64,000 nt of DNA, taken from NCBI GenBank assembly GCA_002269645.1, contig NIVC01000555.1:244482-308481 (forward strand), in the 5' to 3' direction. The notes below the pieces were generated by a model that saw nothing but the letters and a program-made list of their open reading frames with translations, did not search any database and was not told the DNA's origin. Each line of letters starts with the position of its first letter. The stretch's first letter is position 1. The position numbers were made by a program, and so were the translations under genes. Shown one piece after another: positions 20,343 through 21,618 of this stretch. The DNA comes from Macrostomum lignano (Eukaryota).

Positions 20343-21618
20343 TGTAACGTTGTGCCAAGAGGCCTACCAGTTGTTTTAGTGCACTCATTCTGCGGGTATA
20401 TAAATACCGCGCGCACCAATTTGAATTTGAACGCTCGCGCTCTTGACCCTCGCTCTTTTTCCGCGCTTGTTCTTGTAGGCCCAGAGTTGCCTCGTAGCCC
20501 GGACTGTGTGCTCCAGTGTAGTATTGCCTTGTAAGATCGGCCCGGTGTGCCTGACAAACTATTAGTTCATGGCTAGTTATTAGTAACTATTGAGTCTTAG
20601 TTGAGCACTGCTCCTAAGTACTAAGTTAGGTTAGCCAAACTAAATCTTAGCTCTAACAGACTGTGTTAGTAAGGATACAGGAGGCCGAGCTTATCTTTGT
20701 GTTTTTGTCTTTTAATTTTGTTAAGGTAAATTATCATTTTCTGCTGGTGCGCTAGTTCCAATATTTGCTAATTTATCGTTTAATAATTACAATTGATGTT
20801 CGTTAAATTAATGTTCAATTTAAGTTCAAGCGCTAATTCAATTTATTCAAATCTGCTTTAATAGCGGTTTTGGCTCAGTCATTTTAATCATAGCTTCGAT
20901 TGGTGGCAGCGAACTACCTTTCGTGACATATTTAGTTTGGGAATTGATTATCGATACATTGGGGAACGTAACTTATCAAGAAATTATTGGCATTGCTCTA
21001 TCAGACCATCTCAGGGTACCGCTCTTCGACTGGTGCAAAATAAGCAGTTCAGCCTTAGGCCAATTCTCGGAAAGCTACCGAAAGTTAAAGTTATTTGGGA
21101 CTCTTGTCCACCCGGAAATAGAGGAACCAGTCACTCCGCTCACTAAGAGTTCGCGGACAAGAGGTCCGTCTGAGCAAGGTCAGATACTGAATCATCAGAG
21201 TGCTAGAGTGCGTGAGAGTCATAGTCTGCCGACAAACAAAGACTCTAGGAACCACGAGGCCCAGAGAAAAATTATAATTCCGCGGACCATAGGGCCCATA
21301 GGAAATTATAGGGCACTCGCGACAGGAGGTCCATTGAGCTCTGCACCGGAATTAATATTATTGGTAGAAACAGCGTTGGGATTAACAACGTGAATTTATT
21401 AACGAGTATCAACCCTTCTACACTTGGTGTCTTTGCGGTGGGATCTGCTAGCCAAGCCGTCAAGTTTATTTAATCAAAGACCGTTTACATTTGGTAGCGA
21501 CGGTGGGATTAGCAAAGTGCAGACTTATTAACGATCAAGGACCTTTTACAATTGGTGTCTTAGCGGTGGAATTTAGTGGCTACCACCGGAACCGTTTGAT
21601 AAAAGCCCACCTGTTACA
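20343..21618 (+). mobile_element. Solo-LTR-like element (Ty3/gypsy-type ends) containing a PBS array
   Basis: Begins TGTAAC and ends GTTACA, with a TATA-like TATATAAATA near 20397-20406 and tRNA-Leu-like PBS motifs at 20901, 21362, 21425, 21492 and 21553. No clean direct TSD was found. Confidence 0.6.

What the first reader, a model, noticed from the sequence alone, without database searches (positions are those of the whole stretch)
21340..21618. Array of 'LTR end + primer-binding site' cassettes inside one LTR-like element
Four units with periods of 63, 67 and 61 bp start TGGTAGAAACAGCGTTGGGATT (21362), TGGTGTCTTTGCGGTGGGATC (21425), TGGTAGCGACGGTGGGATT (21492) and TGGTGTCTTAGCGGTGGAATT (21553). 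Each resembles the complement of a tRNA-Leu 3' end (TGGTGGCAGCGGTGGGATT or TGGTGTCAG.AGTGGGATT). Units 2-4 are preceded by TACA plus 2 nt, the canonical CA-NN-TGG LTR/PBS junction. Spacers diverge but keep TTATT(A/T)A…ACC…TACA, and the last unit ends at the element's GTTACA. A further 11-nt match TGGTGGCAGCG lies at 20901. Conserved att and PBS motifs with divergent spacers suggest selection. Possible roles are alternative priming or integration ends, a record of stepwise U5 extension by PBS capture, or a decoy for 3' tRNA fragments. I do not know of a described equivalent.
Basis: partly seen in the sequence, partly recalled or inferred. Interest (0 to 1): 0.75.

Follow-up and report, generated by a model that had tools for sequence, protein, structure and literature searches.

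The report
LTR grown by repeated primer junctions
A lone 1.4-kb end-repeat left by a jumping gene finishes in four decayed, head-to-tail copies of its own end-plus-tRNA-primer junction, which likely arose by duplication and were likely pulled into the repeat when copying began at a later primer site, suggesting such elements can move their own ends.

Summary
The array is real: one contig covers it with no differences in 4 of 4 runs. It lies at the 3' end of a 1,407-bp element (20212-21618, TGT...ACA) with a 4-bp target duplication and an empty-site joint, most likely a Ty3/gypsy solo LTR. Each 61-68-bp unit is a bulged or mismatched tRNA-Leu PBS, a variable linker and a U5-like end in TACA. 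The fourth TACA is the real integration end. Units 1/3 and 2/4 pair up, so duplication built it, not four separate captures. Canonical replication requires priming downstream of all four units, so older junctions were absorbed into U5. Most family contigs leave this sequence at 21329; the array has about a tenth of the depth. TGGT and TACA are better kept than neutral decay predicts. Comparison elements add context: 7 of 10 Leu(AAG)-primed elements carry a 9-12-nt PBS copy 56-96 nt upstream of the working PBS, and one animal contig holds a pure LTR-end/PBS minisatellite. Ten literature searches found no description. No parent element, host tRNA set or RNA data were available, so function is unshown. 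New variant; interest 0.5.

The parts
20208..20211 (+). left target-site duplication (GTAA)
   Evidence: empty-site joint 20212->21634 in runs X1 and X10 (table 5c)
20212..21618 (+). 1,407-bp element, TGT...ACA, likely solo LTR of a Leu-primed Ty3/gypsy element
   Evidence: TSD and empty site; contigs that begin at 20212 (table 8); no terminal direct repeat; multi-copy depth over 20264-21343
20397..20405 (+). TATA-like box, followed by a C/T-rich stretch (likely U3/R border; inferred)
20901..20911 (+). 11-nt perfect copy of the 5' part of a Leu(AAG) PBS, preceded by CG-AT, not CA-NN; same type as the LTR-internal short PBS copies in comparison elements
   Evidence: (rank 6 of 1,781 by duplex energy)
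20824..21393 (+). 189-codon open frame without Met; probably not a gene
   Evidence: no Pfam hit, no homologue in near or longer proteins, frameshifting indels in other family contigs (table 4)
21329..21361 (+). point where most family contigs leave the window sequence, then a CA-less stretch before unit 1
   Evidence: loose ends at 21329 in X6, X10, X3 and depth drop
21362..21424 (+). unit 1 (type A): PBS with 3-nt bulge and 2 mismatches, linker, U5-like end in TACA, 2 nt
21425..21491 (+). unit 2 (type B): PBS with 2-nt bulge and 2 mismatches, linker, U5-like end in TACA, 2 nt
21492..21552 (+). unit 3 (type A): ungapped PBS, 15 of 18 to Leu(AAG), linker, U5-like end in TACA, 2 nt
21553..21618 (+). 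unit 4 (type B): PBS with 2-nt bulge and 2 mismatches, linker, and the real integration end GTTACA
21619..21622 (+). right target-site duplication (GTAA)
19870..20207 (.). left part of an unrelated multi-copy repeat into which the LTR inserted
   Evidence: depth and loose ends near 19870-19873
21623..21867 (.). right part of the same host repeat (it may run beyond 21900)
   Evidence: joint 20212->21634 and high depth

Best explanation
The element is a 1,407-bp insertion with TGT...ACA ends and a 4-bp target duplication, likely a solo LTR of a tRNA-Leu-primed Ty3/gypsy retrotransposon, whose 3' end holds four diverged copies of the LTR-end/PBS junction that likely arose by tandem duplication and were likely absorbed into U5 because reverse transcription would have been primed at a fifth PBS just downstream. 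Step 1 (inferred): the module PBS + linker + U5 end + 2 nt was duplicated, plausibly by slippage or template switching between the working PBS and an upstream PBS copy, then once more as a two-unit block (A-B to A-B-A-B). Step 2 (follows from established LTR replication: the primer site used defines the U5 end): priming beyond unit 4 put all earlier junctions inside both LTRs. Step 3 (ends, TSD and empty site shown; recombination inferred): integrase used the TACA of unit 4, and the internal region was later lost. The internal copies are now weak primer sites and are most likely tolerated relics or spare junctions in a small sub-lineage of the family.
For: Ends, TSD and empty site. Unit anatomy equals the working junction of real gypsy elements: ACA-NN plus an 18-nt Leu PBS is followed by gag, pol or integrase Pfam domains in 13 of the 18 loci. 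Units rank at the top of 1,781 sites. Units 1/3 (76%) and 2/4 (72%) are the closest pairs. Other contigs skip about one unit (21366->21436, 3 runs) or step back within the array (21534->21481, 1 run), so unit number or order varies. Depth is 16-48 times the array contig's own depth along 20264-21343 and 1.2-4.5 times over the array, so the stretch right of 20901 travels with the LTR and the array is a minority extension. In 7 of 10 Leu(AAG)-primed comparison loci a PBS copy lies 56-96 nt upstream of the working PBS (0.003 expected), which gives a natural direct repeat at about the unit period. L027 shows the junction can multiply to 14 copies.
Against: No full-length parent, 5'/3' LTR pair or fifth PBS was seen (no genome held). 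TGG and CA stay invariant at a rate neutral decay would give about 0.4-1% of the time, which pure relics do not explain well. Units 2 and 4 share 90% in the PBS but only shuffle-level identity in the linker. Unit 1 has both halves of the PBS, unlike the short upstream copies in comparison elements. No AATAAA/ATTAAA signal was found in the element. Contig depth is not a copy number, and the tables were cut.
Confidence: 0.6

Rival explanations
1. The array is a selected set of alternative priming/integration junctions. Any unit can serve as primer site and LTR end, so one RNA would yield LTRs of several lengths, and the window copy is the product of the most downstream choice.
For: TGGT and TACA invariant in 4 of 4 units while unit cores are 53-74% alike; neutral chance about 0.004-0.011 for the five canonical letters at the simulated divergences nearest the observed. 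Family contigs vary in unit content, and most leave at 21329; the printed loose ends there show a CA within about 1 nt of where a unit-1 junction would fall (read by eye).
Against: Each internal PBS is broken at positions 5-9, leaving 4-7 contiguous pairs at the primer's 3' end against the references, below the 8-18 quoted in PMC4558846. The units were found and aligned by these very motifs, which inflates their apparent conservation. The array is in a small minority of family depth.
Confidence: 0.2
2. The internal copies are kept as tRNA or 3'-tRNA-fragment binding sites: a decoy, a primer-loading site or an RNA folding switch in U5, not primers.
For: Departures from the Leu(AAG) complement cluster at PBS positions 5-9 (fragment nt 10-14): 7 of 9 independent events, binomial p=0.008 before correction for the post-hoc window; the part facing fragment nt 2-8 is intact in units 2 and 3. 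Short perfect PBS copies persist inside LTRs of unrelated families (7 of 10 loci, both LTR copies in L038). PBS and own-unit end are complementary in units 1 and 2 (6 and 7 nt; p=0.037 and 0.012, 2 of 4 units, post hoc).
Against: Positions 4-11 face the acceptor stem, which differs between species, so mismatches to a mouse-study tRNA may be reference error. Neither the array nor any unit folds better than shuffles. In mouse reporters extra mismatches gave weak or no fragment repression (bioRxiv 10.64898/2026.01.22.698655). The array is a minority feature of the family.
Confidence: 0.1
3. It is not a solo LTR but a deleted element: a shorter 5' LTR (ending near 20898 or 21358) plus a leader that carried the PBS array, joined to the last bases of the 3' LTR by recombination at the U5-like end of a unit.
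For: Unit 4's linker and end are the most divergent (50-71% in the last 24 nt). The 20901 site sits one letter from a canonical junction (CG-AT). Unchecked earlier notes describe such arrays in leaders (e1-7217699, e1-7216805).
Against: Neither candidate 5'-LTR end resembles the right end (no such self-match). Depth does not fall after 20911, as it should if the LTR ended there.
Confidence: 0.07
4. An ordinary decayed minisatellite whose likeness to tRNA ends is chance.
For: A different 23-bp minisatellite in the window (3905-4559) also scores 8-10 against the Leu(CAA) 18-mer, so repeats can multiply a chance match.
Against: Top three ranks of 1,781, canonical TACA-NN-TGGT spacing, and the last unit ends exactly at the TSD-defined integration end.
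Confidence: 0.03

Closest known systems
Solo LTRs of Leu-primed animal Ty3/gypsy elements and ta-TRIM/lennie of taeniid cestodes (PMC4558846; 12 passages seen)
   Same: TG...CA ends, 4-bp TSD, Leu PBS beginning with the same 11 letters as the 20901 site, solo LTRs flanked by TSDs.
   Different: ta-TRIM LTRs are about 198 bp with one PBS outside the LTR; here the LTR is 1,407 bp and holds five PBS-like sites. No second LTR or PPT here.
HIV-1 MAL-type partial PBS duplication (PMC3185550; 12 passages seen)
   Same: A natural, tolerated duplication of PBS sequence next to the working PBS (23-nt insertion, 14% of isolates per the review).
   Different: One partial copy, downstream of the PBS and outside the LTR, without a copy of the U5 end; here four copies each carry a TACA end and lie inside the integrated LTR.
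Engineered retroviral vectors with two PBSs (Voronin and Pathak 2004, J Virol 78:5402; title seen in a reference list only; paper not held)
   Same: By its title, two PBSs on one RNA can both initiate; that is the step needed here.
   Different: Laboratory constructs; I did not see the results, so their bearing on LTR length is inference.
Bipartite or second PBS of Drosophila gypsy and Ty3 (PMC1635307; 8 passages seen)
   Same: A second tRNA-binding site in an LTR retroelement RNA.
   Different: That site is near the genome's 3' end and pairs with the anticodon/T stems; here the copies face the tRNA 3' end and are tandem with LTR-end copies.
CRM1TR/CRM4TR, tandem repeats derived from the LTR-UTR region of maize centromeric retrotransposons (PMC3648361; abstract and 3 passages)
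   Same: Tandem repeats born from the LTR/leader region of a gypsy element.
   Different: Long satellite loci outside a TSD-bounded element; the text has no mention of PBS (0 occurrences).
Helenus/TRIMp3 (PMC10886601; abstract and section 3.6)
   Same: tRNA-related sequence inside an LTR; 4-bp TSD in animals, gypsy-mobilised.
   Different: Helenus carries a tRNA-like promoter sequence in a two-LTR TRIM; here there are only complements of the tRNA 3' end, no tRNA call and no TRIM layout.

Membership tests
Ty3/gypsy solo LTR | TG...CA termini | tested here: met
   TGT at 20212, ACA at 21618
Ty3/gypsy solo LTR | target-site duplication of gypsy length with an empty site | tested here: met
   4-bp GTAA both sides; joint 20212->21634 in 2 of 4 runs among the rows shown
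Ty3/gypsy solo LTR | single LTR, no coding internal region, dispersed copies | tested here: met
   no terminal repeat or coding homologue; multi-copy depth
Ty3/gypsy solo LTR | promoter and polyadenylation signals | tested here: inconclusive
   TATA-like box at 20397; no AATAAA or ATTAAA
Ty3/gypsy solo LTR | same sequence flanks a full-length element with gypsy RT/IN | not testable with these tools
   no genome held; superfamily rests on TSD length and junction likeness
Working tRNA primer-binding site | 8-18 contiguous bases complementary to a tRNA 3' end | tested here: not met
   units 1-4: 4, 5, 4, 5 contiguous to Leu(AAG); 7 to Leu(CAA) for units 2 and 4; the 20901 site has 11; references are mouse-study probes
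Working tRNA primer-binding site | match to the host's own tRNA set | not testable with these tools
   no host tRNA in the window, no genome; unit 3's core matches 3' ends of tRNA genes in 6 of 13 viral loci, so its register is tRNA-like
Working tRNA primer-binding site | preceded by CA plus a short gap | tested here: met
   met for units 2-4; not for unit 1 or 20901
TRIM / tandem-array TRIM | two or more LTR direct repeats around a short internal part | tested here: not met
TRIM / tandem-array TRIM | polypurine tract before each downstream LTR | tested here: not met
   only one purine run of 9 or more (21263), none in the units
Helenus / TRIMp3 | tRNA-derived sequence in the LTR of a TRIM | tested here: not met
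   ARAGORN 0 and Rfam 0 in the window; no TRIM layout; decayed pol III boxes were not searched separately
Retrotransposon-derived satellite (CRM1TR type) | long array outside an intact TSD-bounded element | tested here: not met
   four units inside one TSD-bounded element; TRF does not call it

The most novel reading that the evidence does not exclude
Leu-primed animal gypsy elements keep a selected second tRNA-binding site inside U5, and duplication between it and the working PBS builds arrays of interchangeable LTR-end/PBS junctions. The element can then switch primer site and integration end, so the LTR grows by a ratchet: a damaged upstream junction is abandoned for the next one, and old junctions stay on as tRNA or tRNA-fragment binding sites. 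This window would be a fossil of that ratchet, with five PBS-like sites inside one integrated LTR.
Probability: 0.25. Interest if true: 0.72.

Novelty: new variant of a known kind. Interest (0 to 1): 0.5.

Why it matters
The U5 end of an LTR is usually treated as fixed by one PBS. A TSD-bounded LTR that contains its own earlier end/PBS junctions is direct structural evidence that the end can move, and gives a concrete route to very long LTRs and to PBS sites that survive in solo LTRs, where tRNA fragments could act on LTR-driven transcripts (solo LTRs are normally thought to lack them). The side result that 7 of 10 Leu(AAG)-primed comparison elements hold a short PBS copy inside the LTR is a general, quickly testable pattern. 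It also warns that LTR annotation tools may place 3' ends at the wrong junction. If the copies prove to be relics in one small sub-lineage, the value is a good example rather than a new mechanism.

Tried and rejected
No host genome, so family copies came only from one read-laying run. No RNA holder listed; this says nothing on expression. A first guess that the element began at TGTAAC (20343) was dropped: no TSD there, whereas 20212 has TSD and empty site. A hairpin role for the array: MFE z-scores +0.34 for the array and -0.60 to +1.34 for the four units and the 20901 site. A gag reading of the 189-codon frame: 0 Pfam hits, 0 of 189 and 0 of 802 candidates scored. TRIM, Helenus and tRNA gene readings: rejected. 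Collection scans: two-junction pattern 0 in viral contigs; 5 loci in metagenomes, of which 4 are chance matches in what read as bacterial coding DNA and 1 is L027; short-period two-junction pattern 0 in genome contigs; single junction 0 in viral contigs. Viral loci gave no tRNA call for the Leu(AAG) end (0 of 10). No further full-length PBS copy (score >=9) in any of the 18 loci, so arrays like this one are not common there. U5-end/PBS pairing at working junctions of 15 comparison loci was at chance level. Earlier-findings look-ups by sequence and place found nothing for this element. Supplement searches of a flatworm LTR paper (PMC12801592) found none of the motifs; only part of its sequence files is held as text, so this is no evidence on the host. 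PMC6238403 has no PBS text.

Full report
Observation. The four motifs and the 11-nt match are at the stated places. The window is animal DNA (leucine-rich-repeat receptor-like, cadherin and transposase frames); no genome is held, and the host is not identified. In 4 of 4 public runs, from four studies, a single contig covers the array with no differences (21306-21663 in X6, X10, X3; 21306-21637 in X1, table 8), so it is not an assembly artefact. One of these runs may be the source of the window. As references I used the first 18 nt of antisense probes to tRNA-Leu(AAG) and tRNA-Leu(CAA) from PMC7997516 (one methods passage). Among 1,781 TGG-anchored sites on both strands, units 3, 2 and 4 are the only ones scoring 11 or more (0.125 expected per 128 kb); unit 1 ties with 7 others at 10; the 20901 site ranks 59th. 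By duplex energy to Leu(AAG) the ranks are 24, 1, 2 and 5 for units 1-4 and 6 for 20901. Tandem Repeats Finder misses the array, and an ungapped pattern search is not significant by itself.

What the element is. Contigs join 20212 to 21634 with nine letters between that match the right flank (X1 and X10, among 12 of 18 rows shown, table 5c). That is the empty site of an outer repeat (about 19870-21867). It defines a 1,407-bp insertion, 20212-21618, starting TGT, ending ACA, flanked by GTAA on both sides. There is no terminal direct or long inverted repeat, no PPT in place, and the 189-codon frame has no homologue. A TATA-like box lies at 20397, so about 1.2 kb would be R-U5 (inferred). A 4-bp TSD with TG...CA fits gypsy-type elements in animals (PMC4558846; PMC10886601 section 3.6). 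I read it as a solo LTR; the parent was not seen.

Anatomy of the array. Each unit is PBS-like 18-21 nt, a 16-22-nt linker, about 24 nt ending in TACA, and 2 nt. Unit 4's TACA is the integration end. Units 2-4 follow TACA-NN; unit 1 and 20901 do not. Whole-unit identity is 76% for 1/3, 72% for 2/4 and 59-69% for other pairs; the 128-bp self-match was also the only significant one in BLAST. This A-B-A-B pattern points to a two-unit duplication. PBS blocks align above chance in 6 of 6 pairs, ends in 5 of 6, linkers in 1 of 6. With TGGT and TACA-NN removed the cores are 53-74% alike; in neutral simulations nearest to that, five given sites stay invariant in about 0.4-1.1% of cases and eight in 0.01-0.07%. 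The test is lenient to the claim, since the units were found by these motifs. Every internal PBS is broken early: 4, 5, 4 and 5 contiguous pairs with the Leu(AAG) end, 7 with Leu(CAA) for units 2 and 4, with 2-3-nt bulges in units 1, 2 and 4. Mismatches may reflect the foreign reference; bulges cannot. Unit 3 is in normal tRNA register: its 16-nt core is the 3' end of a tRNA gene in 6 of 13 viral loci, which are not host tRNAs. Folding is at chance level. PBS and own-unit end are complementary over 6 and 7 nt in units 1 and 2; this is post hoc and unexplained.

The family. In units of the array contig's own depth, medians are 23-48 over 20264-20911, 16-39 over 20912-21343 and 1.2-4.5 over 21344-21631 (from; contig depth is not a copy number). 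So the stretch after the 20901 site travels with the LTR, while the array is a minority form. Loose ends at 21329 in three runs show most relatives continue otherwise; read by eye, their printed letters have a CA about where a unit-1 junction would be, which suggests, but does not show, that the common LTR ends there. Joints 21366->21436 (three runs), 21534->21481 (one run) and 21108->21457 (one run) indicate other copies with different unit content. Only 15 of 62 joints, 24 of 637 loose ends and 32 of 2,091 pieces were shown.

Evidence from other organisms. A scan for ACA-NN plus an 18-nt Leu PBS in genome contigs gave 18 loci. Two are cyanobacterial tRNA genes; 13 have gag, protease, RT or integrase Pfam hits downstream; L031 and L037 had no long frame and L045 no hit. 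This confirms the junction type. None of the 18 has a second full-length PBS. Of the 13 with the Leu(AAG) PBS I dropped the two tRNA genes and L030 (60 nt upstream only). In 7 of the remaining 10 (L033, L036, L037, L038, L041, L043, L044) a perfect 9-12-nt copy of the PBS 5' part lies 56-96 nt upstream of the working PBS; 0.003 loci expected from shuffles. L041/L043 and L035/L046 are related pairs, so this is 6 of 8 families. In L038 the copy is in both LTRs; in L036 it keeps CA-NN before it. The 4 Leu(CAA)-type loci (L031, L032, L040, L042) have none. The window's 20901 site is of this short type, though 461 nt from unit 1. Separately, a metagenome scan gave 5 loci; L027 is an animal contig with a collagen IV C4 exon and 14 head-to-tail 29-bp units made only of LTR end, 2 nt and a Leu(CAA)-like PBS. 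Earlier scan notes mention PBS arrays in leaders and a second PBS in an LTR; they are unchecked leads.

Mechanism. Shown: ends, TSD, empty site, unit anatomy, variation among copies. From established LTR replication: the primer site used sets the U5 end, so an integrated LTR that contains junctions 1-4 was primed beyond them. Inferred: duplication of the PBS-to-end module, plausibly between the working PBS and an upstream copy (spacing 56-96 nt elsewhere, period 61-68 here), a further two-unit duplication, downstream priming, integration, and loss of the internal part. I give 0.6 to tolerated relics or spares, 0.2 to selected alternative junctions, 0.1 to tRNA or fragment binding as the kept function, 0.07 to a deleted element with a leader array, 0.03 to chance.

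Comparison with what is known. It works like a dual-PBS retroelement RNA and a solo LTR; it fails the tests for TRIM, Helenus and satellite. Nearest in print: the partial PBS duplication of HIV-1 MAL (PMC3185550, passages), two-PBS vectors (title only; not held), the second PBS of gypsy (PMC1635307, passages), CRM-derived repeats (PMC3648361, abstract and passages). For 3' fragments I saw the abstract and 7 passages of bioRxiv 10.64898/2026.01.22.698655, not its supplements. PMC12801592: 7 passages and supplement searches without a match; its sequence files are only partly held as text.

Verdict. It is a new variant of known parts: one degenerate copy in a minor sub-lineage, with no shown function, but with direct evidence that an LTR end sits downstream of four earlier junctions, and with a recurrent related pattern in other gypsy elements. 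Interest 0.5.

Noticed in passing
L033, L036, L037, L038, L041, L043, L044 (56-96 nt upstream of the match): A perfect 9-12-nt copy of the 5' part of the Leu(AAG) PBS lies inside the LTR in 7 of 10 comparison loci (6 of 8 families), in both LTRs of L038, and in 0 of 4 Leu(CAA)-type loci. It may be a general, selected feature worth its own study.
   Followed up: partly
L027:1-409: A 29-bp minisatellite of 14 copies whose unit is just LTR end + 2 nt + Leu(CAA)-like PBS, about 40-100 nt from a collagen IV C4 exon, running off the contig, with no LTR seen next to it.
   Followed up: partly
window 3905-4559: A 22-23-bp intronic minisatellite matches the Leu(CAA) PBS at up to 14 of 18 letters; no CA-NN junction and no LTR nearby. 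Chance or a decayed PBS-derived repeat.
   Followed up: partly
window 21362-21422 and 21425-21489: In units 1 and 2 the bulged part of the PBS is complementary (6 and 7 nt) to the same unit's U5-like end, with different letters in each unit. Unexplained.
   Followed up: partly
window 19870-20207 and 21623-21867: The LTR sits in another multi-copy repeat with many internally deleted forms (joints) and a 16-nt inverted repeat at 21621-21636/21790-21805; type not determined.
   Followed up: no
L037 (after the match): The tRNA complement continues well beyond 18 nt after the junction, as if reverse transcription read on into the primer tRNA; no retrotransposon frame follows.
   Followed up: no
L029-L046: Several bacterial genome bins hold contigs with animal gypsy retrotransposons (13 of 18 loci with Pfam retroelement domains), i.e. 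likely host contamination.
   Followed up: partly
window 24296-38174: Two tandem, 77-91% identical copies of an LRR receptor-like gene (Toll-like layout by eye), one with a frame break.
   Followed up: no
window 17670-19625 and 15502-16487: Divergent pair of intron-poor coiled-coil frames with hydrophobic stretches and no Pfam family; the first has 7.8 copies of a 21-residue repeat.
   Followed up: no
window 12700-14420: Broken piggyBac-like transposase (DDE_Tnp_1_7 hit at 13756-14235).
   Followed up: no
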